A stretch of DNA of 11,571 nt from a virus, in the UHGV virus genome UHGV-0116702, one strand, 5' to 3'. The translations under genes and the position numbers were made by a program. Positions 1 through 11,571 of the stretch are shown in pieces. Position 1 is the first letter of the stretch. Each line of letters begins with the position of its first letter. Below the pieces are notes generated by a model that was not told where the DNA came from, made no database searches, and was given only the letters and a program-made list of their open reading frames with translations.

Positions 1-57
1 CGAATAGCTTCACTGTGTGGACGTGCTGCATGAACCGGGCGGCTGTCTAAAATCATC

Positions 58-1720
58 AAGGTCTAAATACACTATGAGGATGATTAGGGGTTGGTAGATG
101 ATTCGGATGAAGCATCCTCATTACAAGACCAACTATAGAACTACCTGTTAATAACAGGACAATATCAGGTGAATCCCTATTCAATTTAAAGGCATTTTCC
201 CAAGTATCTAAGCAGTTTTACACAGATTCTATGCAGTATCGGTATAGTCTCTTTTTACCCTAACTTATTGAAATATATAGAGAATCTGTGAAGTCTCTTT
301 TCAGGGAACTATGCAGGGTGTTAGTCGTTCCTCTCTCGACCCTTAGAAAAGTGCTATATACAGGACTATATAACGCTATTCATGCAGTTGGTCACCATAT
401 GTTACAGTTGCAAGAGATAACAATCAGCTATGTGAAAGTTAGGAAGTGATGGTTACAGTTGATTCGGTTAGTTCTAGGAATCAACCTCATAGTTCCTTCG
501 TAGTTCCTCTTAAAAAATCACTTACAGACACCTTAATATCTATACAGATTTCATGTAGAACACGATTAGTGCGTAAAACAGCTATTATGTTAAAAACGCA
601 CTGTATACGTATCAGTACTGATTTATAAGGGTTTTGTGTATTGGATGATAAGAGGCTATGCAGCACCTTGAGAGCATGTCTTCTAAGTCATTGATACATA
701 AGGTCACAGAAGTTTGTGTCTGTTACAGAGAAAACTGGATAGGATTTCACAGAACTATAAAATGTTACAGCTATTGATAGGTTAAATCTTCTTGATAGAT
801 GCTTTGAAGTGTGGTGAAGGTTTCTTGAGGTGGAGCTAAACAGATGCTATGAAGAAAGTCAATGATATTTTAACTGCTTTTGCAAAGGGGGTGCTATATC
901 GTGAATCTGGGGTACTTAACAGCCATCAATTGAGTGTAGATATTTTTTAAGATTATCGGTGAAGGGGAATGTAGAGGGGGGTACTACGATTTTTATAAAA
1001 ATTTTCAGACTCTGAAAAGTTGCTGTACAGATTTTGCACAATCTTACCAAGCCTCATAGAAAGCTCTGTAGCGAGTTTTAACCCCATTTTTAGGGGTAAC
1101 CTGTAGGTATGTACCACCCACCTTAAAATAAAGGGGTAAAATCGCTTAGAATGCGTTACAGAGCGTCTGAGAAGCTATATTCACAGATTTTACTAAAACC
1201 TCAGACTTTCTAAGTGGTCTTTTTAACAGGAGGGGTTCCCCTATGGTCACATATCCCCTCTCTCGCTTAGTGAGCTACACAGACCTAGAGAACATGCTCT
1301 GTAACGCCTTCACAAACATTGACTAAGGTCAACTTCATAAACTCAGAGTTAAGTTACCTTGAAAGATTCTACCAAGAAACTACACAGGTATTATTTAGTC
1401 TGACTGTGAAGAGATGTTTAACGGGAGGAAGAGAACCATGAAAACCGAAGGTAGGTTCTATCTTAACAGTGACTGTAAGAGATACCTGAAAAGATACTTA
1501 ACAGAACTACCAAGAAGAGAGGGAACGATAAAACCAGAGGTAGTGACCTTGTTAAGTAGGTCGTTTCAAAGTCTCTTAAAAGTCTGTTAAGTAAGGGCTA
1601 TGTGAACAATCTTACCATTTTGTCAATGCTTTTGTCTTTGACCTAAATCAATAAAATGTATCGTTTGATGTGCTTTTAAACAAAATAGCTAAAAAATCTT
1701 TTTAGAGGGGCGCTTCGCTT
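58..1720. other. ORF-poor, motif-dense non-coding region (candidate ori / ncRNA / regulatory hub)
   Basis: The six-frame track shows only one 60-aa ORF in 1.66 kb, and it has no RBS. Region contains the conserved box copies at 1063-1075, 1145-1171 and 1296-1308, recurring CTGTGAAGAG and TTACAG/TTAACAG motifs, and a 17-bp perfect palindrome TTTTCAGACTCTGAAAA at about 1003-1019. Confidence 0.5.
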
Positions 1721-2389
1721 GTGTCACATCCAATAATCCATATCGGTCGTTATCATGGTGGTTCTGATGACTGGCGTACACCGTATCGTCTATTTCATAA
1801 CCTGCATCGTGAGTATAGCTTCAGTCTAGATGGTGCTGCAACTGAGCATGACGCATTGTTGCCACGGTTCACCGATGATATTCACAATCAATCATGGGTT
1901 GGTGAACGGGTCTTCGTTAACCCGCCGTTTAGCATGGCTGAACAGTTCCTCCTAAAAGCCCCTGAAGCTGATGTGTGTGTATGTCTGGTTCCGCACAGGT
2001 CAAAGACAACTTACTGGCTTCGGTGTGTATATACAAACCCCTTCCTGCATGAGATTCGAACGTTACACCGAGCGGTTAAATACCTTCCACCAGCAGGAAA
2101 GAGAGGTGTTGTAGCGCGTTCACCGTTTGCAAGTTGCGTTCTGATATACAGGAACACACCCCGTAAACCGAAGGTTGAAGTTACCCAGACAATCTATTGT
2201 GGCGACACAATGCTTTTACTTGCCGTGGTTAACAGGGGTGGTTTACGTGGAAGACCTCATATACACGATGCACAGACGCTTGACAGGTTGATTAAAATGC
2301 ATGACCAAGGGCAATCCATCAAGAGCATCGCAGAATCGCTAAGAATGCCTCTAAGCACCACTTACAGGATTGTTCAAAGGTTGGGCTGA
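1721..2389 (+). CDS. Phage-type N6-adenine DNA methyltransferase (Dam-like) fused to a C-terminal resolvase/invertase-type HTH domain
   Basis: 222-aa ORF with GTG start 10 nt after a GAGGGG Shine-Dalgarno. N-terminal ~155 aa carry DWRTP, LDGAA and the WVGERVFVNPPF motif with the catalytic NPPF tetrapeptide, typical of the small phage Dam family. C-terminal ~60 aa (GRPHIHDAQTLDRLIKMHDQGQSIKSIAESLRMPLSTTYRIV) match the GRP arm plus helix-turn-helix pattern of Hin/resolvase DNA-binding domains. Confidence 0.7.
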   Translation: MSHPIIHIGRYHGGSDDWRTPYRLFHNLHREYSFSLDGAATEHDALLPRFTDDIHNQSWVGERVFVNPPFSMAEQFLLKAPEADVCVCLVPHRSKTTYWLRCVYTNPFLHEIRTLHRAVKYLPPAGKRGVVARSPFASCVLIYRNTPRKPKVEVTQTIYCGDTMLLLAVVNRGGLRGRPHIHDAQTLDRLIKMHDQGQSIKSIAESLRMPLSTTYRIVQRLG

Positions 2390-2428
2390 AATTCTCATAT
2401 AGAGCACTGATTACGAGAATGTTAAAGA

Positions 2429-2462
2429 GGCGATTTCCCCTTTCTGGGGTTATTCGCTTTTT
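2429..2462 (+). terminator. Candidate intrinsic terminator downstream of the methyltransferase gene
   Basis: GGCGATTTCCCCTTTCTGGGGTTATTCGC: nested stems GCGA/TCGC and CCCC/GGGG, followed by TTTTT at 2458-2462. Confidence 0.4.
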
Positions 2463-2597
2463 ACTGGAAGGGTTATTTTACAGAGGTTTTTCAAACCCCC
2501 TCAATAATAGAAACGAGCAACAAACGAAGAGCGAGAAATAAAATATTGAGACTGGTGAACGGGGTCTGTAAAGATTGTTTAAGGGGGCAGTTAAGAA

Positions 2598-2630
2598 GGT
2601 GGCTCTCCCTTTCTGGGGTTATCGCCTTGT
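2598..2630 (+). repeat. Second, degenerate copy of the CCTTTCTGGGGTTAT hairpin motif
   Basis: GGCTCTCCCTTTCTGGGGTTATCGCC shares an ~18-nt core with the hairpin at 2429-2462 but has a weaker T-tract (CTTGTATCTT). Confidence 0.35.
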
Positions 2631-2654
2631 ATCTTAGTGAGTCCAGGAAGTTCT

Positions 2655-2835
2655 CTGTGAAGAGTCTTGTCAGTCCTTTATATTGGGTGATTACAACTCA
2701 TTGAAAAATAAGTGTTTTTAGAATTTACTGTTAAGGTTACAGAGTTAACTGTGAAGAGACTTGTCAGTTCTCTATATATGGCTAATTACAACTAATTGAA
2801 AAATAAGAACTTTTAGAAATTACTGTCAGAGAGGT
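2655..2835. repeat. Two tandem ~94-bp direct repeats (about 85% identity over ~75 bp)
   Basis: Copy 1 starts CTGTGAAGAGTCTTGTCAGTCC at 2655; copy 2 starts CTGTGAAGAGACTTGTCAGTTC at 2749. Both contain ATTACAACT, ATTGAAAAATAAG and TTTTAGAA-TTACTGT. The CTGTGAAGAG head also occurs at 1403-1412 and in variant form at 286-295 and 1468-1477. Confidence 0.6.
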
Positions 2836-2946
2836 GAATACTTGATAGATACAGCTTTCCGGTTCTGTCAAGCTATTTTTTCATAGATAGCACAAAATGC
2901 TAAAGATACCCCTATACCATCTCGTACAGGGGATTTTGGAGGGAGT

Positions 2947-3123
2947 TTAACGGGGGTCTGTGTGGTCATTATCCTTAAGGTCAAGCGTCCATGTATGACC
3001 GAACAGTTTAAAGACAACAAGCACTCTGACAAGGACGTAACGAAGTAGCAGACCTGCAATAAGTCCAATACCTCCACCAGCCCATACATCAGGTGACCCC
3101 AGTTCAGGAGGGAGATTTACCAT
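2947..3123 (-). CDS. Hypothetical small membrane protein (58 aa, one predicted TM helix)
   Basis: ATG at 3123-3121 preceded by AAGGA with 6-nt spacing on the minus strand. Product MVNLPPELGSPDVWAGGGIGLIAGLLLRYVLVRVLVVFKLF... has a glycine-rich hydrophobic stretch. The track ORF 2947-3165 is the same frame extended to a TTG. Divergent from the 3421 operon. Confidence 0.3.
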   Translation of the reverse strand: MVNLPPELGSPDVWAGGGIGLIAGLLLRYVLVRVLVVFKLFGHTWTLDLKDNDHTDPR

Positions 3124-3136
3124 TAGTTTTCCTTGT

Positions 3137-3235
3137 AAGACGCTCTCAATCGCATTCTGACACAAAAAGTACCTGACCTTATGAGTTGACCTTAAGAGGC
3201 TGTTTAACTCGTTACAGAGCGATTGAAGAGGTCTG
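3137..3235. repeat. Inverted-repeat-bracketed element, copy 1 (conserved left and right arms, divergent interior)
   Basis: Left arm AGACGCTCTCAATCGCATTCT (3138-3158); right arm CTGTTTAACTCGTTACAGAGCGATTGAAGAGGTCTG (3200-3235). Arms are imperfect reverse complements sharing GCGATTGAG and GTCTG. Interior contains a doubled TGACCTTA. Confidence 0.55.
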
Positions 3236-3341
3236 TGTGCAATGCAATAACCATGTGACCACTCTCATAGCCACGCCTTTATATTTTACTCTCCCCATAG
3301 AACCATTATACCATAGATGTTAATAAATTGTTAAAAAATGC

Positions 3342-3370
3342 TTGACATTAGTCTTTGAAACTGCTAGTAT
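3342..3370 (+). promoter_or_regulatory. Candidate sigma70-type promoter for the 3421-4658 operon
   Basis: TTGACA (3342-3347), 17-nt spacer, TAGTAT (3365-3370); A/T-rich upstream tract TTAAAAAATG; about 50 nt upstream of the ATG at 3421. Confidence 0.45.
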
Positions 3371-3420
3371 TGTACATATAAGTTAACAGAGAATTAACAA
3401 TTATAAGGACTAGCTTATGA

Positions 3421-3900
3421 ATGAACGACAGAGAATTTAGAGCGATGCTTCAGGCATCAAGAGAACGCAAAGGCATTGACGAAGTAATTCGGGCAATTAC
3501 ACCGAGGAGTCGTTATATGCCAACCAGAAAGAGCACCCAGAACACTATTAAAAATTATTTGGCTAACTTCGACAGCTACGAGCAACTACCAAGTAAGCTT
3601 GATGATATTTTCATTGGATTCTGTAGAAGTGAAGGCCACCCGAAATACAACAAAAAACTATTTTATCTTCTAAAGAATCTTGACGAAATTAACTCAGCTA
3701 CCGTGACAAATTATCTTCAGCGACAAGCAACCAGACTTAGTTATGAATTACCAAGCGATAAATATTGTGCATTGCTTGCTGTAATGTGTGCAAAGCTAAT
3801 TGGTATTGTTGAACATCATATTGCCGTTGGTAATATTGAGCCAATGGAAAACGAGCAACCAGACTTTGAGTTTGACCCGTATATTTTGGAGGAATTTTAA
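3421..3900 (+). CDS. Hypothetical protein (159 aa) with acidic C-terminal tail
   Basis: ATG with AAGGA SD about 11 nt upstream; first gene after the candidate promoter; ends ...ENEQPDFEFDPYILEEF. No family recognised by eye. Confidence 0.6.
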   Translation: MNDREFRAMLQASRERKGIDEVIRAITPRSRYMPTRKSTQNTIKNYLANFDSYEQLPSKLDDIFIGFCRSEGHPKYNKKLFYLLKNLDEINSATVTNYLQRQATRLSYELPSDKYCALLAVMCAKLIGIVEHHIAVGNIEPMENEQPDFEFDPYILEEF

Positions 3901-3901
3901 A

Positions 3902-4183
3902 ATGAAAAACAAACACACATTAACCCGCATTTCAGAGGAAGCTTTTAACGAGCTTACCAGAATTAAACGAGCTACTAACTTGCCTCATCAAACTGTAATG
4001 CAGCTTGCAATTGCTAAAGAGGTTACTGAGTCGGATTTACTGAAATATCCAGTCTCTAAAGGTCGTAAACACATCCGAATTAGTCAGGACGCTTTAGCTA
4101 CTTTGAAGGCGCTTAACGGCTTTAAGATTGATATTGCCCGTCTATTGAGTCTTAAAATTCACAAGCTGTCTCTGGAGGTCTGA
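3902..4183 (+). CDS. Hypothetical small protein (93 aa), possibly DNA-binding
   Basis: ATG at 3902 lies 1 nt after the upstream stop, with GGAGGA about 12 nt upstream. Preferred over the track's TTG start at 3800, which overlaps the upstream gene. Two internally similar segments (TLTRISEEAFNELTRIK / KHIRISQDALATLKAL) suggest a repeated motif; the DNA-binding idea is speculative. Confidence 0.55.
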   Translation: MKNKHTLTRISEEAFNELTRIKRATNLPHQTVMQLAIAKEVTESDLLKYPVSKGRKHIRISQDALATLKALNGFKIDIARLLSLKIHKLSLEV

Positions 4184-4185
4184 TT

Positions 4186-4458
4186 ATGAAGCAATGGCGA
4201 GATGATATTAAACGGTTCTTTGCAACTTACTTCATGATTAATTACGAAACAGGAATGCTTGAATGGATTGATGGTGGAGAGGTTAAGACAAGAGATGACG
4301 CTTACGGTAATCCAATGATTCGTTATGGCACTCGTGATTATTATGTGAAATATGTCATCTGGTTTTTGCATCATGAAGTTCAGGCAACTAAAAAAATTAT
4401 CTTCAGGGATGGTAATAAAAGAAATTGCCACCCAAACAATTTACTACTGGAGATTTAA
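4186..4458 (+). CDS. HNH_3-family (homing-endonuclease-like) small protein, possibly catalytically degenerate
   Basis: 90 aa; ATG 8 nt after GGAGG and 3 nt after the upstream stop. C-terminal YYVKYVIWFLHHEVQATKKIIFRDGNKRNCHPNNL matches the HNH_3 pattern (YYVHRLV...VxHIDGNKxNNxxxNL), but by my manual alignment the HID histidine is Phe (IIFRDGNK). Confidence 0.55.
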   Translation: MKQWRDDIKRFFATYFMINYETGMLEWIDGGEVKTRDDAYGNPMIRYGTRDYYVKYVIWFLHHEVQATKKIIFRDGNKRNCHPNNLLLEI

Positions 4459-4658
4459 TGCTATGTATTAAATTCGAATATTTGACAGATAAAATGATTA
4501 AGCATGTATCAGACCTGCTCATCAAAGAAGATGGTTTCGGTGATGTTTGCAATCCAAAAGATATCTTCATTCACGCCACCAGCCCAAATGAAACACTGAA
4601 AACAGCAGTTACAGCGGAATGGTTTGAACGAAATAAAGTAGAATTAGGCTATTGGTAG
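4458..4658 (+). CDS. Hypothetical protein (66 aa)
   Basis: ATG overlaps the upstream stop (TAATG) with GGAG 5 nt upstream, indicating translational coupling. Track ORF 4425-4658 is the same frame from a TTG inside the HNH gene. Confidence 0.5.
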   Translation: MLCIKFEYLTDKMIKHVSDLLIKEDGFGDVCNPKDIFIHATSPNETLKTAVTAEWFERNKVELGYW

Positions 4659-4692
4659 TCCGAGACTTTAAGAGAAATTAGAAAAACAGCTT

Positions 4693-4816
4693 CTCAGACG
4701 CTCTCAATCGCATTCTAACGCAAAAAACTATCTTATTTTAGGGTGGGTAATACCACTGTACAGGCTACCCCTGAAAAAGACTGTTTAGCTCGTTACAGAG
4801 CGATTGAGGAGGTCTG
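4693..4816. repeat. Inverted-repeat-bracketed element, copy 2
   Basis: Left arm CAGACGCTCTCAATCGCATTCT (4695-4716); right arm CTGTTTAGCTCGTTACAGAGCGATTGAGGAGGTCTG (4781-4816). Arms are nearly identical to copy 1 (right arm 35/37) while the interior differs in sequence and length. Ends 22 nt before the ATG at 4838. Confidence 0.55.
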
Positions 4817-4837
4817 GTAAAAAGGAGATTTTAGGAA

Positions 4838-5161
4838 ATGAACAATTACGAATTACAGATTTTCGTTGATAGCGACACCGCTATGATGATTCAGGCTTTC
4901 ACTGATGTAGGTGTTAGCATTGACTTTGACAGGCTGTTAAGGCTAATGGCTGATAACTCAGAAACAATTGAAGATTTTATTCAGTCGGTGGAGTTTAACG
5001 AGCCTCGAATGATGCTACCAATTAAAGACAGCAACATGAAAAGATTGGTTATCGAGCAAACGAACAAATTCAGCATTAGCCCTGAAAGATATCTCAAGGC
5101 AGCTATAGCAATTTTGTACGCTGACAATATTCTGGTGACGGATTCTGTGAGGATTCACTAA
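4838..5161 (+). CDS. Hypothetical protein (107 aa)
   Basis: ATG 9 nt after AAAAAGGAG SD; no recognisable motif. Confidence 0.6.
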   Translation: MNNYELQIFVDSDTAMMIQAFTDVGVSIDFDRLLRLMADNSETIEDFIQSVEFNEPRMMLPIKDSNMKRLVIEQTNKFSISPERYLKAAIAILYADNILVTDSVRIH

Positions 5162-5238
5162 TGGGTTTAATAATTGCTTGGGCGTTGCTTGGCTTATTTG
5201 TTGGTTGCTGGGTAGGTAACACAGTAAATAAGAATTGA
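5161..5238 (+). CDS. Candidate 25-aa hydrophobic microprotein (MGLIIAWALLGLFVGCWVGNTVNKN)
   Basis: ATG overlaps the stop of the 107-aa gene (TAATG). Sequence is almost entirely one TM-like helix with a polar C-terminus. Too short for the ORF track; support is overlap geometry and composition only. Confidence 0.3.
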   Translation: MGLIIAWALLGLFVGCWVGNTVNKN

Positions 5239-5262
5239 TGTTACCAATCTGTTAAAAAGCTG

Positions 5263-5291
5263 TTGACAAATAACCTTGAGCATGACATAAT
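5263..5291 (+). promoter_or_regulatory. Candidate sigma70-type promoter
   Basis: TTGACA (5263-5268), 17-nt spacer, CATAAT (5286-5291). The track's 67-aa ORF 5263-5466 begins inside this -35 hexamer. Confidence 0.4.
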
Positions 5292-5481
5292 TGTATATAT
5301 GAGGATAGTCTTCTATCCGAAGTCTATGAGGAGAGCAATTCTCTCTTATTTTCTTTCAATAATCCGATGGATGGATATTCTGAGTTGGAAAGGTGCAATG
5401 CTTTTCGTCATGGCCTTTCAGTTTAGTCTGAGAGGCTATCTCAAAAAGTGCTTAATCATTCATTGAACCCTTTACAGCTTT

Positions 5482-5510
5482 GCCCTAACTCATGATTAGG
5501 GCTTTCTTTA
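5482..5510 (+). terminator. Candidate intrinsic terminator
   Basis: GCCCTAA-CTCATGA-TTAGGGC perfect 7-bp stem followed by TTTCTTTA. Confidence 0.45.
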
Positions 5511-5579
5511 AGAGTTTTTAAACAGAGCTTTTAAAGAAAGTTTTTCCTGAAACTTCGTTAACGTTAAAGCAAACCTTCA

Positions 5580-5613
5580 AAGCCCTTCACAGATTATGTT
5601 TAGGGCTTTTCTT
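5580..5613 (+). terminator. Second candidate terminator hairpin (related stem)
   Basis: AAGCCCT - 15-nt loop - AGGGCTT followed by TTTCTT; shares the AGGGCTTT(T)CTT tail with the hairpin at 5482-5510. Confidence 0.4.
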
Positions 5614-5708
5614 AATAGAGCATCTTTAATAAATCGTTAAGTCATCTTCTAAGTGTATTGGCGTTGAAGGTGCTCTATTAAGAAATAACCACTTAGAGGA
5701 AAATTATA

Positions 5709-6419
5709 ATGACAAACGATTTATATATTAACGGTAAAAAGGTTGATAGCTTCGGTGACTGGTCGCCACAGACTGAACATCCAGCTATCACTATCCAGCG
5801 TAAAGAACATGATGAAAGAATTGCACTTGAGCAAGAAATCCGAATGTCACCAAAGGTAATTACCTTTGTAGCTCCTGAGCCTCAAGAGATGCCTGATATT
5901 TGCAAAACTCAAGCATTACTTGAGCTTGAGCGTGAATATTACCCACTGCTGAAAGCACAAAGAATTAAACTTGATATTGCTTACGACAATGTGAAGAACT
6001 TTGAAGAGACTGAAAAGCCAACTGATTTTGATATTGAAGTGGAAATTAGACAAAACCCATTCGTATATTACTCAGTTGAGGATAATGATGGTTTTGGTAC
6101 AGCAAGAGAGAATATCTCAAAAGTTCTTCAAAACATCCCTGAAGGATTCCGTTTAATTGATGTTAGACCAGCTTCACGCGGTACAGGTTCATATATTTTA
6201 CTGTCTGATAAAACAGATGAAGAGATTTGTCAGTTAGCTGAAAAGAATCTACTTGAGCGTCATAGCAAAAAATTAAACAGATTTAAGCAAGAACTTGCTA
6301 ACCAGCTTCAGGCTATGAAAGACCTTATTTCTGCATATGAAACGCAGAAGAAGGTTGCTATGCAGGCTGATATTGAGCAGTTAGTGAAGATTTCTCAGAA
6401 ATACGCAAAGGCACTTTGA
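5709..6419 (+). CDS. Hypothetical protein (236 aa), acidic with helical C-terminal region
   Basis: ATG about 10 nt after AGAGGA SD; long uninterrupted ORF; no family recognised by eye. Confidence 0.65.
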   Translation: MTNDLYINGKKVDSFGDWSPQTEHPAITIQRKEHDERIALEQEIRMSPKVITFVAPEPQEMPDICKTQALLELEREYYPLLKAQRIKLDIAYDNVKNFEETEKPTDFDIEVEIRQNPFVYYSVEDNDGFGTARENISKVLQNIPEGFRLIDVRPASRGTGSYILLSDKTDEEICQLAEKNLLERHSKKLNRFKQELANQLQAMKDLISAYETQKKVAMQADIEQLVKISQKYAKAL

Positions 6420-6444
6420 CTATGAATTAAAAAGGAGGTGATGA

Positions 6445-6648
6445 ATGTTTGATTTAACGGAACGCTATGAACTTATTAAAGCAATTAGCGAGAGATTGAA
6501 AGAACAACCCAACAAACCAAAACGAATCAAATCATCCACCTCTAAACAAAATAACAGAATCAGAAAAATTGCTAAATGGTGTCTGGATAGATTACCAAGT
6601 GATTGTCAGATTGTCGGTGAAGATGGCAATTATTATCTGATTAGGTAA
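6445..6648 (+). CDS. Hypothetical small basic protein (67 aa)
   Basis: ATG 5 nt after AAAAAGGAGG SD; lysine/arginine-rich centre (KPKRIKSSTSKQNNRIRKIAKW). Confidence 0.55.
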   Translation: MFDLTERYELIKAISERLKEQPNKPKRIKSSTSKQNNRIRKIAKWCLDRLPSDCQIVGEDGNYYLIR

Positions 6649-6673
6649 AGAATTGGTTGGGTGAAAATCTACG

Positions 6674-6714
6674 GGAGAGATTATCGAGTGACATCGGTAG
6701 TTTCTCCTTTTTTT
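6674..6714 (+). terminator. Candidate intrinsic terminator
   Basis: GGAGAGA (6674-6680) pairs with TTTCTCC (6701-6707) with one G-U pair, then T7 (6708-6714). The 20-nt loop is long, so confidence is moderate. Confidence 0.4.
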
Positions 6715-6736
6715 GTATGTGTGCTACATGAAATCT

Positions 6737-6787
6737 GTAAAGCTAATATCCACACTGAAAAATAGAATTTACGTAGCTCACGCTTAA
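6737..6787 (+). repeat. Direct repeat A (51 bp, 38-bp perfect core) immediately upstream of the tape-measure gene
   Basis: GTAAAGCTAATATCCACACTGAAAAATAGAATTTACGTAGCTCACGCTTAA. Core 6750-6787 is identical to 9024-9061. Contains a -10-like TAGAAT with no good -35. Confidence 0.8.
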
Positions 6788-6804
6788 AGAGGTGAAAAAT
6801 ATGA

Positions 6805-8985
6805 ATGAGCAAATTCACAGTTGATAGTTTTATCGTTGAACTAGGCTTCAATGAAAACGTTATTAAGGGCTTGCAAAGAGTTGAAAAGGCAGCTTTGCAG
6901 TCAGCACAAAGAATTGAACGTAATTTGAATAGAGCGTTTAAGGTCGATACCAAGCAACTTGACAGCAACCTGACAAGTTCTTTAGGGCAACTTGAAAGGA
7001 AGTTTAATAAGACCTTTGACAAGATTGAACAGAGAGCAAGAAATACTAAAGCTTTCCAGTTTACCACCAGATTTAATGACACTGTTAATCCTCCAAAACA
7101 ACCGAGACAGCCACGAATTAGCGGCAACAGAGCAATCACAGCAGCGCATAGCGTGAATATGTCTAAGCTTGGTGATATTAATCCGCTGATGGCTAAAATG
7201 TTTAAAGCACAGTATTACAGCTTAAGCGGTAAGGCTGGTAATATTGGAAGTGAAAAGTTTAACGCTGAACTTGCAAAATTAAATCAATCTCTTCGTGAAA
7301 CGTTGAATAAACTCAGGTCACAGACAAAGACCACCAGCATTAACAATACAAGCGACGCATTTAATAATCTTGCAAGCAATGCAATCAAGTTATCTGGTGC
7401 ATTTTACTCTGTGATGGGTGCTCTTAACGCTTACAAGGCCATTATGAATGCAGGTCTTAAACGAGATTCCGCACAGAGAGCCGCTAAGTTTGTACTTGGT
7501 GATAAAGCATCTGAAGCTGAGGTATTTATTCGAAATTTAGCAGACAAGACAGGTCTTAATATCTCTGAAGGGCTATCAAGCTACGCTAAGTTTGCAGCAG
7601 GTGCTCAGGGTTCTATGTCACAGGAACAGACACAGGAGCTATTTGGTAATGCAACGGCTATGAGTCGCTTAATGGGGCTTTCTAACGATGAGCTAAACGG
7701 CATTTTGAAAGCATTTGAGCAGATGGCGAGCAAGGGCAAGATTCAGGCTGAAGAGCTTCGTGGACAGTTAGGTGACCGTATGGCTGGTGCATTTAAGCTA
7801 TTCGCTGAAGCATTGGGTATGACTGCTACAGAGCTTGATAAAGCGATGAAAGACGGGAAGATTTTAAGTAGTGATACTCTCCCTAAAGTCGCTAAACAGA
7901 TGGGCTTGATGATTGATAAAGCGGGTGGCTGGGCTGAAGTCGCTAAGAGCACTCAGACAGCTTTAGGGAAACTGGCTAACAACTGGGATGATACGATGGT
8001 GAAAATCTTCTCAGGTTCACAGGATGAGCTAAACGGCTTCTTATCCAGCCTGAGTAACCTGCTTAGTGAAATGGGGATGAGTTCATCTATCGCTGGTGAT
8101 GCTATCGGTGGACTTATCGACATGCTTAAAGCTGGTGTGGATGACATCCGTATCTTTAACAATCACCTTGAAGGCTGGATTCTACAGACTAAGAAGTTCT
8201 ATTACAGCCTTGATGACACTAAACGAAAACTACTTGATGAAGTCGGTGATGGTTTTATCAACTTCGTCAAAGGTCTTGCTATAGCGTTATCTGCAAAGAC
8301 ACTATTCAGTGCTGCTACAGGGGTTATAAACCTGACAAGAGCAATCACAACGTTAGGTACAAGAGCTAATCAGGTTGCTGGTCAGGTAGCTACTGGTAAA
8401 GGTGGTGGAAAACTGAAAGGTGTAGCTGGTGGTGTAGGTAGTGCTCTTGCAATTGGTTATGCTGATGACGGTTATGAAACAGCGTTAGCATTAGCTTCAA
8501 TGATTCCACAAATCAGAGGCGTCACTCTTGGTTTATATGCATTGAAGAAAGCACTGGATTTTATGAATCAGGAAGTAGTCAAAAACGCTAATATGCATCC
8601 ATCTGGGGTAGGTGTGGGTAGTGACTTTAATCCCGTGTATTCTGGTGACCCTAATAAACCGAATATGATTAACGAAGGATGGGGTAGAATTTTTAGTTCA
8701 ATGGGTGAATTGTTTAACAATGCCACAATGAATATTGCAAGATTCAATCATCCAGAGTTAAACAACATTAAGCAAGATTCAGCATTAACGAGTGCAGATA
8801 TTCAGAGTCTGAGGGATGAAATCTCTGCTTTAAGTAAGCGTATTCAGGAGCCTGTGAAAGTTTCCTTGGGTGGTGAAGTTGCCATTAAACCAGATGAAAC
8901 CAGCTTTATGACCTTTAGCAGTAATATCTACGACCAATATGCAGAAGCTACGCTATTAAGTTCATCATTCCCAGAAGATGATTGA
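6805..8985 (+). CDS. Phage tail tape-measure-domain protein (726 aa)
   Basis: N-terminal coiled-coil-like segment, then LNGILKAFEQMASKGKIQAEELRGQLGDRMAGAFKLFAEALGMTATELDKAMKDGKILSSDTLPKVAKQMG, which matches the conserved tape-measure core. Downstream there are glycine-rich hydrophobic stretches (ATGKGGGKLKGVAGGVGSALAIGYA). SD AAGAGG is about 13 nt upstream. Confidence 0.7.
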   Translation: MSKFTVDSFIVELGFNENVIKGLQRVEKAALQSAQRIERNLNRAFKVDTKQLDSNLTSSLGQLERKFNKTFDKIEQRARNTKAFQFTTRFNDTVNPPKQPRQPRISGNRAITAAHSVNMSKLGDINPLMAKMFKAQYYSLSGKAGNIGSEKFNAELAKLNQSLRETLNKLRSQTKTTSINNTSDAFNNLASNAIKLSGAFYSVMGALNAYKAIMNAGLKRDSAQRAAKFVLGDKASEAEVFIRNLADKTGLNISEGLSSYAKFAAGAQGSMSQEQTQELFGNATAMSRLMGLSNDELNGILKAFEQMASKGKIQAEELRGQLGDRMAGAFKLFAEALGMTATELDKAMKDGKILSSDTLPKVAKQMGLMIDKAGGWAEVAKSTQTALGKLANNWDDTMVKIFSGSQDELNGFLSSLSNLLSEMGMSSSIAGDAIGGLIDMLKAGVDDIRIFNNHLEGWILQTKKFYYSLDDTKRKLLDEVGDGFINFVKGLAIALSAKTLFSAATGVINLTRAITTLGTRANQVAGQVATGKGGGKLKGVAGGVGSALAIGYADDGYETALALASMIPQIRGVTLGLYALKKALDFMNQEVVKNANMHPSGVGVGSDFNPVYSGDPNKPNMINEGWGRIFSSMGELFNNATMNIARFNHPELNNIKQDSALTSADIQSLRDEISALSKRIQEPVKVSLGGEVAIKPDETSFMTFSSNIYDQYAEATLLSSSFPEDD

Positions 8986-9010
8986 TTTAACGGTGTTCTA
9001 CGTGAATAAA

Positions 9011-9061
9011 GCAAAGTTAATACCCACACTGAAAAATAGAATTTACGTAGCTCACGCTTAA
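9011..9061 (+). repeat. Direct repeat B (copy of repeat A) immediately downstream of the tape-measure gene
   Basis: GCAAAGTTAATACCCACACTGAAAAATAGAATTTACGTAGCTCACGCTTAA; 48/51 identical to 6737-6787, offset 2274 bp; lies about 80 nt upstream of the ATG at 9142. Confidence 0.8.
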
Positions 9062-9141
9062 CAGAGAAAATACTTATATATCAAAGGCTTGGTTAAAAAT
9101 GATTAAAATACACTAAGCCTTTGAAATCAAAGGAGAATTTA

Positions 9142-9930
9142 ATGATTTTTAGCAATCAAATCCGCTACAGTGGCAAAGATGGCGTTTACTTCCACTTAAG
9201 AGATAATGTAGATGCCTTCTTAACCTTATCAGCAACTGAGAACATGGAATTTGATAGCCCTATGCAGGTGACTACACAGAACATGCAATCAGGGCAAACC
9301 GTCACAGATAATGTGCAAAGAGCACCCAGAACAATCACTATTAGCGGTGTCGTTGTAGTTGGCTATGAAGGGAGCTTATTATTAACTCGTCAGGGTCAAT
9401 TAGTAGAGAACTTCATCGACACTCTTGAAAACTGGCGTGACCAGAAACAAATTATTTCGGTCATCTGTAAAGACGGAATTAAAATTGATGATTCCATTAT
9501 CACAAGTTTTAAAGCCTCTAAAGATGTTGGAATTTCAAACGGATTAAGAATCCAACTAACTTTTCAGGAAATTAACTTCAGAGCTGTTGTGGGGCAGACT
9601 GATATCTCGGCTGCAACTGGAAAAGCCGCGACTACGAACGATGGTGGTGTGACCAGTAAGAAGAATGCAGGTAACGTGACCACTGAACGCAATAACGCGC
9701 CTATGCTATCGTGCAAAGAGCTAATGAGTATTAGCGATGTATCCGGTTACGCTCCAGCTATCAGAAATGATATTCTCGATGCTCAGATTAAGTGTAATAA
9801 GGCTTGGAAGCTGGACTATTCAGACTTAACAGAAGCTGAAAAAACCAACGTCACCAATGCTAATAGTAACGCTGGTCGGGTAGCTTCAAAGCTTAAAAAG
9901 TACTCAGTGAACCCTCACAAAAAATACTAA
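9142..9930 (+). CDS. Hypothetical protein (262 aa); possibly tail-associated on positional grounds only
   Basis: ATG 6 nt after AAGGAG SD; the track ORF from 9121 is the same frame from an upstream TTG. Sits directly after the tape-measure gene, where siphophages usually encode the distal tail protein, but I see no diagnostic motif. Confidence 0.55.
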
Positions 9931-11450
9931 ATCTCTACTACATCAACATCTATTAAACCCCTCTCAGTGACTTCAGAAAGCGACTGTATAGCCTCTGTAA
10001 CGTCCTCTGAGGGGTTTTCTGTTATTGATAAGGTGATTGACTTACCATTGTGAAAAGTTACTTTACAGCGACGTTTAGCAGTATTTAAAACGACCTCTTT
10101 AACAGCACTTTTGATTATCAGTTGTGCTTCAATTCTCCCCGCCTTTGTAGTCAAGTCACAATCAGACAAACACCCCACATCAATAGATTTAAGGCGTTGT
10201 GTCTCCTTCTCGATATCCGCATCAACCTGTGATAGCTCACCTTTTAACTGCTTTAGTTTGATGGTAATAGCTGACAAATCTTCAATTTCAAGTGATAGCT
10301 GTACCAGCTTTTCAATATTGCTTGAGATGTGTTCACGGTGTAGCCTCAACATATCTATGGTATTCGTCGTATCGCTATCAAATCGGTCAAGACGAGATAG
10401 CAGAGTAAGCAATGTACCATCGGTTTGCTTACGTGAAAGTCCTTTAGCACTACAACGGTTTTCATTACGAAGAGGACAACGATAAATCCCGTTTCTTGTA
10501 TCACTAAAGCCTGTGATAATCAGAGCATGACCACATTCAGAACAACGGATAACACCTTTAAAGAGATTCACACTCAATGGTTTATCTGAAACAGACCTCT
10601 TTCCATAACGAGAATGTGATAGTTGTTGAACTTTGTAGAATGTTGTTTCATCTATAATTGCAGGATAATAACCAGCTATCTCCTCACAGCCTTTAGGTGT
10701 GAAGTAACCAATTACAGAGCGATTCTTCAGAAGGTCTTGTACTGAGGTTTGACCAAACTTACCAGCTTTATATTGGTTAAGCGTCTGGTGACCTTCATCA
10801 TTAAGAGTCCTGACAATCGCCCAGATAGATTTGCCCTCTAACCGTAGCTGAAAGCACCTCTTCACAGTTTCTACCTTCTCAGGTATTACAGAGAAGCTTT
10901 TACGGTCATCATTCAGCCTTAACCATGCAGGACAACGCCTAGAAATCTTGATACCAGCTTTAGCAGCTTCTTTCTTTGCATCCCATGCAGCTTGTATACG
11001 CTCAGCCTTACGTAATGATTCCTCATGCGCCCTTTGCATTATCAGAATGCTTTTAATCAGGGATAACGGGTCTCTTAAGCTTTCCTTTGTGTAATGTTCA
11101 CCATCGGACAAGGTGACTACATCTACACCAGAGCGAAGAATGTTTCGTAATAGCTCACTTGCTCGGTCTACGGCCTGACGTGACAAACGGTCTAAACTCT
11201 CGATTAGTAGTGTATCACCAGCTTTAACAAGCCCTTTCTCGATAGCGGTTAAAAAGTCACCTAAGCCACCTTTCAAGTGCTTACCAGTGAATCCACTCAC
11301 ACCTAAATCACGGAAGGATAAATCTTGGTCAAGGTAGTACTCAGGTTGAGCCTTAAGCCAGTCATTAACCATCTTAGACTGTCTGCGTAGTGAATCACCT
11401 CGGGATTGCTTCTCAGATGAAAACCTGATGTAAGAAATGGCACGTTTCAT
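9927..11450 (-). CDS. Large serine recombinase (integrase, 507 aa)
   Basis: N-terminal resolvase-type catalytic domain with the nucleophile motif YIRFSSEKQ and arginines in DRLSR; central recombinase region; Cys-rich zinc ribbon CSECGH...[11 protein letters not shown]; C-terminal coiled-coil-like segment. GAGGTG SD 4 nt before the ATG. Confidence 0.9.
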
Positions 11451-11476
11451 TGTTCACCTCAAAACTGATGCCCTAG

Positions 11477-11505
11477 ATTGTATCGTTTTAGATGGTGTAT
11501 TTAAA
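11477..11505 (-). promoter_or_regulatory. Candidate promoter for the recombinase gene
   Basis: On the minus strand: TTTAAA, 17-nt spacer, TACAAT, about 25 nt upstream of the recombinase ATG. The -35 is weak. Confidence 0.3.
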
Positions 11506-11571
11506 CGTGTCTAATAAAAATCACCCGATTAACGCCGCGCTGATGTAAACCGCGATTAAGCGTTTGTTCCT

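What the first reader, a model, noticed from the sequence alone, without database searches (positions are those of the whole stretch)
3137..4816. Two inverted-repeat-bracketed elements with conserved arms and unrelated interiors, each upstream of a gene module
Copies at 3137-3235 and 4693-4816 share a ~22-30-bp left arm and a ~37-bp right arm (35/37 identical), while the interiors differ in sequence and length (about 40 versus 65 bp). The arms are imperfect reverse complements; as RNA, GACGCUCUCAAUCGC could pair with GCGAUUGAGGAGGUC over about 13 of 15 positions. Candidates are paired operator sites, a structured cis-regulatory RNA, or a MITE-like insertion.
Basis: seen in the sequence. Interest (0 to 1): 0.65.

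Follow-up and report, generated by a model that had tools for sequence, protein, structure and literature searches.

The report
Repeated inverted-repeat cassette in satellite-like island
The two look-alike hairpin-forming stretches are real, belong to a set of three conserved non-coding cassettes at fixed places in a phage-satellite-like island of E. coli, and their conserved arm also occurs in control regions of T5-like phages, giant phages and small plasmids, so it is probably a portable regulatory DNA (or RNA) signal whose function has not been described.

Summary
There are three copies, not two: A at 3133-3233 (+), B at 4693-4816 (+) with a 34-nt 5' extension, and C at 1050-1174 (-). There are also two solo arm-like sites.

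B and C share their interior; only A differs. In 107 related loci, 124 copies occupy three syntenic positions, always ordered C(-) A(+) B(+). This argues against an active MITE.

The elements are far more conserved than the neighbouring genes: B has 98% median identity against 81% for the downstream ORF. No Rfam family matches.

Each copy can fold as a long hairpin, but A/B and C pair in different registers. Neither strand is favoured and covariation is absent.

Each arm consists of about three phased 10-11-bp repeats (GCGTTAGAAT-GCGWTNNAGA-GCGTYTGAGAA). The same roughly 30-40-nt block occurs in other enterobacterial mobile elements:
- beside the XerC arm of a cer-like site in ColE2-type plasmids;
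- after terminators and before early promoters in giant phages;
- at the start of the untranslated repeat region of the T5-like terminal repeat.

My best reading (about 0.4) is a portable protein-binding or architectural DNA module. The main rival (about 0.3) is an RNA hairpin acting in the 5'UTR of a small membrane-protein gene (A) and between cistrons (B).

The parts
3133..3233 (+). Copy A. Left arm about 3133-3168, short interior 3169-3193, right arm 3194-3233.
   Evidence: Repeat families D7 and D4. Fold z -2.0 on the plus strand and -3.5 on the minus strand. Exactly this stretch is missing in the related island L001. 37 A-type copies occur in related loci.
4659..4816 (+). Copy B. 5' extension 4659-4692, starting one base after the stop codon of ORF 4458-4658. 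Left arm 4693-4726, interior 4727-4774, right arm 4775-4816. The Shine-Dalgarno sequence of ORF 4838 starts 8 nt after the stem.
   Evidence: z -5.5. Median 98.4% identity across loci against 80.6% for the next ORF; the extension has 100% median identity.
1050..1210 (-). Copy C, in inverted orientation. Core 1050-1174 and 5' extension 1175-1210. Its interior is homologous to that of B. Its stem uses GCTCTGTA/TACAGAGC.
   Evidence: Inverted repeats I1 and I5. Alignment. Fold z -4.3. The order is always C(-) A(+) B(+). In L003, L008 and L011 it lies upstream of a small serine recombinase gene.
1272..1307 (-). Solo right-arm-like site (GGCGTTACAGAGCATGTTCTCTAGGTCTGTGTAGC). It is a 12/12 complement of the left arm of copy C.
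   Evidence: nhmmer E 0.024.
10705..10730 (+). Partial arm-like match (TAACCAATTACAGAGCGATTCTTCAG) inside the recombinase gene. Its significance is uncertain.
   Evidence: Family D2, 17/20..
2947..3123 (-). 58-aa small ORF with one hydrophobic segment. The antisense strand of copy A lies between its likely promoter and its Shine-Dalgarno sequence.
   Evidence: Annotated as a CDS in L007 and L009. Intact in 52 of 53 loci, with 38 distinct and conservative protein variants. No family hit.
3305..3370 (.). Divergent promoter-like pair. Minus strand: TTAACA-18-TATAAT at 3334->3305, 11/12 with TG. Plus strand: TTGACA-17-TAGTAT at 3342-3370, 10/12 with TG.
   Evidence: These are consensus matches only.
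2909..2932 (-). Terminator-like hairpin after the small ORF.
3115..3143 (-). Degenerate Xer-core-like stretch, GCGTCTTACAA-GGAAAAC-TAATGGTAAAT. It is homologous to the cer-like core GGTACGTACAA-GAGGAG-TTATGGTAAAT of ColE2-type plasmid L005. The XerC-like arm is the end of copy A. The XerD-like arm contains the ATG of the small ORF.
   Evidence: Alignment. The L005 site matches ColE1 cer with z 9.9. The XerD-like 11-mer alone is not above chance in the window.
4838..5161 (+). 107-aa ORF immediately downstream of copy B. It is the first gene of the module that runs on to the tape-measure and baseplate genes.
   Evidence: No family hit.

Best explanation
Each element is an inverted pair of one ~30-35-bp sequence block placed around an A/T-rich centre. 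The block is built from three phased repeats of about 10-11 bp. Read outward they are GCGTTAGAAT | GCG(A/T)T-NN-AGA | GCGT(C/T)TGAGAA.

I take the block to be a portable protein-binding or architectural DNA module, most likely bound by a factor shared among enterobacterial hosts. In this island it marks three transcription-unit boundaries:
- A lies between the small membrane-protein gene and the divergent early promoters.
- B lies between the early operon and the module carrying the tail genes.
- C, inverted, lies at the head of the leftward region, which in related islands holds a small serine recombinase.

On this view the hairpin potential follows from having two inverted arrays of similar repeats. 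That would explain why pairing survives in different registers.

What is shown: the anatomy, the fixed positions, the strong conservation, the repeat structure, and the homology to plasmid and phage control regions.

What is inferred: that a protein binds, which protein it is, and that binding insulates or regulates the neighbouring promoters, for example by blocking read-through at B until a helper phage infects.
For: 1. The invariant parts are sequence blocks (AGACGCTCT, CGCATTCT, CTCGYTACAGAGC), not base pairs. RNAalifold finds no shared long-range helix in a mixed A/B/C alignment.

2. A/B pair CTCTCAATCGC with GCGATTGAGGAG, whereas C pairs GCTCTGTA with TACAGAGC. This is a one-repeat register shift.

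3. The two strands fold about equally well, and within-type substitutions keep or break pairs at roughly the neutral rate.

4. The divergent copy in L011 has lost the stem partner but keeps GCATTCTAAG and CTCGCTACAGAGC.

5. The block recurs outside the islands:
- 34/38 identity in ColE2-type plasmids (E 2e-5), directly abutting the XerC arm of a cer-like site;
- 39/43 identity (E 9e-7) in T5-like phages, between the pre-early terminator and the DnaA-box pairs of the untranslated LTR repeat region described by Davison;
- 24/24 and 30/33 identity in giant phages, after an intrinsic terminator and 12-35 nt upstream of an early-promoter-like site.

6. In Pectobacterium phage CB7 the block has the opposite orientation relative to the genes.

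7. In phage copies the two middle positions of the second repeat vary freely while the flanking GCG and AGAGCG stay fixed.

8. Elements are much better conserved than their flanks, and they are always arranged C(-) A(+) B(+).
Against: - No binding protein is identified. I compared the block by eye and from memory with the LexA, DnaA, IHF, Fis, ArgR, DeoR, ArcA, OmpR and MetJ consensus sites, and none fitted convincingly.
- DnaA-box-like and LexA-box-like patterns are not enriched in the window.
- Copy B fills a 179-nt gap inside an operon and ends 8 nt before a Shine-Dalgarno sequence. Copy A lies in a 5'UTR. Both are classic RNA-element positions.
- Thirty nucleotides at 85-100% identity across distant phages is tighter than most host transcription-factor sites.
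- Promoter-like sites downstream of the block are only weakly enriched in 20 phage loci (mean best score 8.7 against 7.5-8.2).
- ColE1 cer itself shows no significant similarity to the island elements.
- The viral-contig hits were ascertained with a pattern that fixes much of the block.
Confidence: 0.4

Rival explanations
1. The elements act as RNA. A, transcribed on the minus strand, is a ~100-nt stem-loop in the 5'UTR of the small membrane-protein mRNA. B, on the plus strand, is an intercistronic rod between the early operon and ORF 4838.

The long imperfect duplexes would be RNase III or stability determinants and would tune translation of the gene that follows. Because A is read antisense and B sense, the two RNAs are complementary over about 37 + 42 nt and could cross-regulate, as in P4 CI RNA/seqA-seqC or lambda OOP. 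In B and C the 5' extension GUCYGAGA can pair with UCUCAGAC, offering an alternative to the closing stem that a ribosome stopping at 4658 could influence.
For: - Hairpins have z -4.3 to -5.5.
- A near-consensus minus-strand promoter lies 70 nt upstream of A, and a terminator-like hairpin follows the small ORF.
- B begins 1 nt after a stop codon and ends 8 nt before a Shine-Dalgarno sequence.
- The A(-)/B(+) duplex energy is -131.6 kcal/mol, against -63.9 +/- 5.7 for shuffles.
- The extension has 100% median identity.
- At the B position, islands without B carry another hairpin-rich spacer that still contains CTCTGTAACCCGCAT.
- The apex-flip variant keeps the stem.
- In phage CB7 the block lies between co-directional genes.
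Against: - There is no shared helix, no covariation and no strand preference.
- Arm changes in A are not mirrored in B of the same island, for example in L016 and L060.
- B stays 100% identical in L001, which lacks A, so cross-pairing with A cannot be its main role.
- Phage and plasmid homologues often have one arm only, lie after terminators, and show no significant fold.
- No Rfam hit at E<=1.
Confidence: 0.3
2. Copy A together with its left flank is a cer/psi-type Xer multimer-resolution site, or a relic of one, inherited from a ColE2-type plasmid-like ancestor. The inverted-repeat element would be its accessory-sequence region. B and C would be duplicated accessory regions without a crossover core.
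For: - Island A (minus strand) aligns with plasmid L005 through the block, the XerC-like arm, the spacer and the XerD-like arm (TAATGGTAAAT, 10/11).
- The L005 site is a genuine cer relative (z 9.9 against ColE1 cer) with a ColE2-type Rep.
- In cer the region next to XerC has phased A/T tracts and a promoter (PMC2831885).
Against: - The XerC-like arm matches only 7/11, and the spacer is 7 nt.
- The XerD-like 11-mer is not above chance in the window and overlaps a conserved start codon.
- B and C have no core.
- No ArgR box was seen by eye.
- This reading does not explain the phage copies.
Confidence: 0.1
3. The elements are MITE-like or palindromic mobile repeats that inserted three times and are now neutral passengers.
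For: - Imperfect terminal inverted repeats, and a size of 100-135 bp.
- A is precisely present or absent between islands.
- A C-type copy sits at the B position in L004.
- Arm fragments are scattered in other mobile elements.
Against: - There are only three syntenic contexts in 124 copies, and no target duplication.
- Homology to the plasmid crosses the A junction.
- The elements are far more conserved than neighbouring genes, which neutral passengers would not be.
- No transposase is present: the 236-aa ORF that PGAP names 'transposase' has no Pfam, NCBIfam or PHROG hit.
Confidence: 0.07
4. The elements are nut-like processive antitermination sites. The sense strand would carry a boxA-like CGCUCU(GU/CA)AA(C/U) followed by hairpins, recruiting NusB/S10 so that transcription reads into the next module.
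For: - The C-type CGCUCUGUAAC matches the rrn boxA core GCUCUUUAAC at 9/10 (consensus recalled from memory).
- CGCUCU is nearly invariant in all relatives.
- Each copy heads a gene module in its own orientation.
Against: - A and B match only 7/10.
- There is no boxB-like hairpin at the usual distance.
- In T5-like and giant phages the boxA-like strand is opposite to the neighbouring genes.
- This motif was found after many motif comparisons, so the risk of a chance match is high.
Confidence: 0.05

Closest known systems
Untranslated repeat region of the T5-like left terminal repeat (Davison's Repeat Region 3, the injection-stop-signal region; bioRxiv 10.1101/866236)
   Same: - Direct sequence homology of the arm block: up to 39/43, E 9e-7.
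- Non-coding position rich in inverted repeats of about 131 bp.
- Both allelic forms of the second repeat (TTACAG and TTTGAG) occur in T5-like phages and in the islands.
   Different: - T5-like phages carry a single block, followed by a LexA-box-like palindrome and DnaA-box pairs.
- There is no second arm and no significant fold.
- The function is unknown there too. The paper does not name this block.
Accessory region of cer/psi-type Xer sites in ColE2-type plasmids
   Same: - The plasmid carries both arms around a ~45-bp A-rich spacer.
- The block abuts the XerC arm.
- Island copy A keeps a degenerate core.
- In cer this region has A/T tracts phased at about 10.5 bp.
   Different: - Copies B and C have no Xer core.
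- ColE1 cer accessory DNA is not detectably similar to the island elements.
- No ArgR box was seen.
PeSL mobile regulatory cassettes of T4-type phages (Arbiol et al. 2010; recalled from memory, not checked here)
   Same: - Short repeated cassettes containing a stem-loop at the boundaries of gene modules in a phage-like genome.
- Exchangeable between positions: a C-type copy sits at the B position in L004.
   Different: - A conserved sigma-70 promoter inside the element could not be shown. The -10-like TAGAAT is not kept in phage Asesino, and the -35 sites are poor.
- There is no evidence of recent shuffling.
Phage and satellite antisense control: P4 CI RNA with seqA/seqC, P1 c4, lambda OOP (from general knowledge)
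   Same: Repeated complementary segments on transcripts of a satellite. A(-) and B(+) RNAs are complementary over both arms.
   Different: - No processed small RNA is known.
- B is equally conserved in islands that lack A.
- Arm changes are not matched between copies.
ERIC/REP-type intergenic palindromes and MITEs
   Same: Imperfect palindromes of 100-135 bp in transcribed intergenic DNA.
   Different: They are confined to one island family at three fixed positions, with no dispersed copies in the chromosome.

Membership tests
MITE | Terminal inverted repeats | tested here: met
   The arms are imperfect inverted repeats of about 30 nt.
MITE | Target-site duplication at the insertion junction | tested here: not met
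   The occupied site (window) compared with the empty site (L001) reads ttcc|...|tgtgtgc, with no duplicated flank.
MITE | Many copies at unrelated sites | tested here: not met
   124 copies in 107 loci fall in three syntenic contexts.
Integron attC site | R'' RYYYAAC and R' GTTRRRY core sites at the ends, with an IntI integrase nearby | tested here: not met
   TTCTAAC, CTGTAAC and GTTACAG do not fit the consensus (read; consensus from memory). The only recombinase present is a large serine recombinase.
Any Rfam 15 RNA family | Covariance-model match | tested here: not met
   No match at E<=1 in the whole window.
Conserved structured cis-regulatory RNA (generic) | A shared secondary structure supported by covariation on one strand | tested here: inconclusive
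   There is no common helix, and no compensatory changes or strand bias within types. However, the sequences are very close, so statistical power is low.
nut / boxA antitermination site | BoxA consensus on the transcribed strand followed by a boxB-type hairpin | tested here: not met
   The C type matches 9/10 and A/B match 7/10 to the boxA core (from memory). There is no adjacent boxB. The orientation is opposite to the genes in several phages.
cer/psi-type Xer site | XerC arm, 6-8-bp spacer and XerD arm core | tested here: inconclusive
   Next to copy A: 7/11, a 7-nt spacer, and 10/11. The 11-mer alone is at chance level. Nothing comparable lies next to B or C.
cer/psi-type Xer site | Accessory sequences on the XerC side | tested here: met
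   This is met for the plasmid relative only. In L005 the two-arm element abuts the XerC arm of a site that matches ColE1 cer with z 9.9.
Type I toxin-antitoxin locus | Small hydrophobic ORF with a long folded 5'UTR and an antisense RNA | tested here: inconclusive
   The ORF and the folded leader are present. No family model hits it. An antisense RNA cannot be shown from sequence.
T5-like LTR repeat block (sequence family) | Significant sequence similarity to the block | tested here: met
   BLAST E values from 9e-7 to 1e-2 in many Demerecviridae, at a constant position.
RNase III processing site | Cleavage by RNase III in vivo or in vitro | not testable with these tools
   Only the roughly 20-50-bp imperfect duplex is shown.

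The most novel reading that the evidence does not exclude
The ~30-40-nt block (A)AAAYCGC-TTAGAATGCG-WTNNAGAGCG-TYTNAGAG may be an unrecognised cis-element passed horizontally among enterobacterial mobile elements. It occurs in the T5-like first-step-transfer/injection-stop region, in early intergenic regions of giant phages, in ColE2-plasmid Xer sites, and, as inverted pairs, in an undescribed family of Felixounavirus-related satellite islands. It would be read by one conserved host factor, or would be an RNA motif not yet in Rfam.
Probability: 0.35. Interest if true: 0.75.

Novelty: new variant of a known kind. Interest (0 to 1): 0.55.

Why it matters
If the block is a shared recognition signal, it links several poorly understood regions through one host-dependent mechanism. 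These are the untranslated repeat region of the T5 terminal repeat, the accessory DNA of plasmid Xer sites, the early intergenic regions of giant phages, and the control regions of a common E. coli island carried by about 8% of complete genomes. One short probe would then serve for pull-downs and reporter assays.

The island itself encodes a serine recombinase, a Felixounavirus-type tape measure and a baseplate protein, but no capsid, terminase or recognisable replication genes. It appears to be an undescribed satellite family, and these cassettes are its most conserved non-coding features. They are therefore the obvious place to look for how it senses a helper phage.

Tried and rejected
- **Rfam:** the whole window at E<=1 gave nothing. 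Plasmid L005 gave only a weak PK-repBA hit next to rep, not in the block.
- **tRNA/tmRNA:** none found.
- **Helper-phage motif:** GTTACAG and related words are not enriched in a Felixounavirus genome.
- **Genome contigs by protein:** only two loci were returned.
- **Sigma-70 promoter inside the arm:** TAGAAT would be the -10, or TTGAGA/GTTACA the -35. The spacing and the partner hexamers are not conserved between copies, and TAGAAT reads TAGAAC in phage Asesino. The apex promoter TGTACA-16-TAAAAT in B is lost in other B variants.
- **Promoter enrichment downstream of the block in phages:** weak.
- **DnaA and LexA boxes in the window:** at chance level.
- **Similarity of ColE1 cer accessory DNA to the island elements:** not significant.
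- **Consensus sites compared by eye and from memory:** IHF, Fis, CRP, ArgR, DeoR half-site, MetJ, ArcA, OmpR, PhoP, Tus-Ter, Tn3 inverted repeat, ToxI repeats, T5 nick sites, and an anticodon-loop mimic. None was convincing, and I treat them all as untested.
- **Co-variation of arms between A and B of the same island:** none.
- **Literature searches for Felixounavirus satellites:** nothing found.
Full report
**What the window is.** The first ~55 and last ~55 bases are the two halves of E. coli yecE. Everything between is an inserted island. Its genes are:
- a large serine recombinase at 9927-11450 (-);
- a tape-measure gene at 6805-8985 and a Dit-like baseplate gene at 9121-9930, which are 88-95% identical at the DNA level to Felixounavirus phages;
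- a Dam-type methylase fused to a resolvase-type HTH at 1721-2389;
- a small HNH protein;
- several ORFs with no family hit.

Related islands sit in yecE and at two other chromosomal sites. The repeat element is present in 422 of 5426 complete E. coli genomes. I found no paper describing these islands. I read the island as a satellite-like element, but I did not test that.

**Checking the observation.** The left arms match at 33/37 and the right arms at 38/42.

A third full copy, C, lies on the minus strand at 1050-1174, with z -4.3. C shares its interior with B, so the interior is unrelated only in A. B and C also share ~35 nt on the 5' side. Arm-like fragments lie at 1272-1307 (-) and 10705-10730 (+). 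The core 13-mer occurs 3 times against 0.03 expected.

**Population view.** From E. coli genomes, IMG/VR and one metagenome scan I collected 107 loci holding 124 copies, of which 83 are distinct sequences.
- The copies fall into three types at three syntenic places.
- The order is always C(-) A(+) B(+).
- B has 98.4% median identity to the window, while the ORF after it has 80.6%. The B extension has 100% median identity. The flanks of C have 76-82%.

The elements are therefore under constraint or are homogenised. They are not drifting passengers.

Copy A is exactly missing (3133-3233) in island L001, which keeps both flanks. L007 lacks C. L007 and L011 have a different hairpin-rich spacer at the B position that still contains CTCTGTAACCCGCAT. 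L004 has a C-type copy at the B position. One variant, in L041, has the apex inverted between the arms.

**Context of each copy.** A lies between a 58-aa ORF with one hydrophobic segment (3123->2947) and a divergent pair of near-consensus promoter-like sites at 3305-3370. That ORF is intact in 52/53 loci. The minus-strand promoter-like site would transcribe A in antisense as the leader of the small ORF, and a terminator-like hairpin follows that ORF.

B starts one base after a stop codon, counting its extension, and ends 8 nt before the Shine-Dalgarno sequence of ORF 4838. It must therefore be transcribed in the sense direction.

C points leftward. In L003, L008 and L011 a small invertase-like serine recombinase gene lies downstream of it.

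**RNA tests.** Rfam gives nothing. RNAalifold on a mixed alignment finds no long-range helix, because A/B and C close their stems with different partners: CTCTCAATCGC/GCGATTGAGGAG against GCTCTGTA/TACAGAGC. Both strands fold about equally well. Within each type, paired and unpaired columns vary about equally. Changes keep or break pairs at about the rate expected for random transitions, and there are essentially no compensatory pairs. The divergent L011 copy has lost nine bases of the left stem but keeps the conserved sequence blocks. Statistical power is low because the copies are so similar, so this does not exclude an RNA role.

**The arm is a repeat array with relatives elsewhere.** Read outward, each arm is three units of 10-11 bp: GCGTTAGAAT, GCG(A/T)T-NN-AGA and GCGTYTGAGAA. 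The right arm is a full-length inverted copy of the left, with 20/29 matches in register. In C the two arms align one unit out of register. That would explain why pairing survives in different registers without any selection for pairing.

The same block occurs in unrelated mobile elements:
- **ColE2-type plasmids.** The match is 34/38, E 2e-5, in 197 records. In L005, whose Rep is PF03090, two arms flank a ~45-bp A-rich spacer. The block abuts GGTACGTACAA-GAGGAG-TTATGGTAAAT, a cer-type Xer core that matches ColE1 cer with z 9.9. In cer this proximal region holds phased A/T tracts and the Pcer promoter (PMC2831885).
- **T5-like phages of Salmonella, E. coli, Klebsiella and Vibrio.** Matches reach 39/43, E 9e-7. 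The block always lies after the terminator of the pre-early genes and before a LexA-box-like palindrome and the paired DnaA boxes of the untranslated LTR repeat region (Davison, bioRxiv 10.1101/866236).
- **Giant phages (EJP2-like and Asesino-like).** Matches are 24/24 and 30/33. The block lies after an intrinsic terminator and 12-35 nt upstream of a good promoter-like site.
- **Pectobacterium phage CB7.** The block has the opposite orientation, between co-directional genes.

In these copies the two middle bases of unit 2 vary freely while GCG and AGAGCG stay fixed. Both island forms of unit 2 (TTACAG and ATTGAG/TTTGAG) occur among T5-like phages.

**Copy A and Xer.** The island and the plasmid align through the block, a XerC-like arm (7/11, the last bases of copy A), a 7-nt spacer and a XerD-like arm (10/11), which contains the start codon of the small ORF. 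Because this homology crosses the junction between element and flank, the empty site in L001 is better explained by deletion of the palindrome than by insertion into an empty site. The XerD-like 11-mer alone is at chance level in the window. B and C have no core, so I treat a working Xer site as a minor possibility.

**Weighing.** The DNA-module reading explains several things together: the register shift, the lack of strand bias, the single-arm homologues after terminators, the use of both orientations, and the position next to a recombination core. Its weaknesses are that no binder is identified, that B and A sit in classic RNA positions, and that the conservation is unusually tight for a transcription-factor site.

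The RNA reading explains the positions and the strong folds. It also offers a concrete A(-)/B(+) pairing of -131.6 kcal/mol, against -63.9 +/- 5.7 for shuffles. However, B is unchanged in an island without A, arm changes are not matched between copies, and the phage relatives do not fold.

I put the DNA module at about 0.4, the RNA hairpin at about 0.3, a Xer-site relic at about 0.1, and the MITE and nut-like readings at about 0.05-0.07 each.

**Novelty.** The elements are not in Rfam or in any paper I could search. Repeated stem-loop cassettes at module boundaries are a known kind in phage genomes. The unusual part is the cross-element block, whose function is unknown in every context where it occurs.

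Noticed in passing
window 56-11516 (whole island): An ~11.4-kb island inserted in yecE. It has a large serine recombinase, a Felixounavirus-like tape-measure gene and a Dit-like baseplate gene, a Dam-HTH fusion and an HNH protein, but no capsid, terminase or recognisable replication gene. It looks like an undescribed phage-satellite family. Relatives also sit between lpxL and mdtG and between yciI and tonB.
   Followed up: partly
window 6719-6787 and 8993-9061: A 69-nt direct repeat (87% identical) lies immediately upstream of the tape-measure gene and of the baseplate gene. It contains ATATCCACA / ATACCCACA and TAGAATTTAC. TAGAATTTAC is absent from the one Felixounavirus genome checked.
   Followed up: no
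window 2421-2453 / 2590-2622 and 2649-2731 / 2743-2826: Downstream of the methylase gene there are two copies of a terminator-like CCCC-TTTCT-GGGG unit and a tandem ~94-bp repeat carrying CTGTGAAGAG...TTGTCAG. The same CTGTGAAG motif recurs at 286, 1404 and 6218.
   Followed up: no
window, whole: GTTACAG occurs 11 times against 1.6 expected, 9 of them on the plus strand. TACAGAGC occurs 7 times against 0.3 expected. Several sites lie outside the elements (401, 452, 722, 764, 2736). The motif is not enriched in the Felixounavirus genome.
   Followed up: partly
window 1721-2389: A Dam-family adenine methylase carries a C-terminal resolvase-type HTH_7 domain, which is an unusual fusion. It is a possible sequence-specific binder in the island.
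   Followed up: no
window 5709-6419: A 236-aa ORF that PGAP names 'transposase' in many genomes has no Pfam, NCBIfam or PHROG hit. More than 3000 relatives, in Escherichia, Shigella, Salmonella and Citrobacter among the 120 best hits listed, were found. The name looks unfounded.
   Followed up: partly
L003 8487-9032, L004 5011-5556, L008 9540-10082, L009 6745-7293, L011 5686-6090: Many related islands carry a second, small (~181 aa) invertase-like serine recombinase, downstream of copy C in L003, L008 and L011. The window lacks it and has ~1 kb of non-coding DNA there instead.
   Followed up: partly
L108 1160-1345 and L112 660-760 (T5-like phages): The T5-like DRD repeats (GAGAATGATTTGCGTTTAGAAAG) contain the same GCGTTTAGAA unit as the island arms, and by eye they resemble Fur boxes. 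A perfect LexA-box-like palindrome, TACTGTATAAATATACAGTA, lies between the block and the DnaA-box pairs.
   Followed up: no
L041 682-821: One B-type copy has the apex sequence inverted between intact arms (a flip of the loop region).
   Followed up: no
L107 about 1535-1555 (phage EJP2, minus strand): A Chi sequence, GCTGGTGG, lies ~12 nt upstream of the block in the EJP2-like giant phages (also in L121).
   Followed up: no
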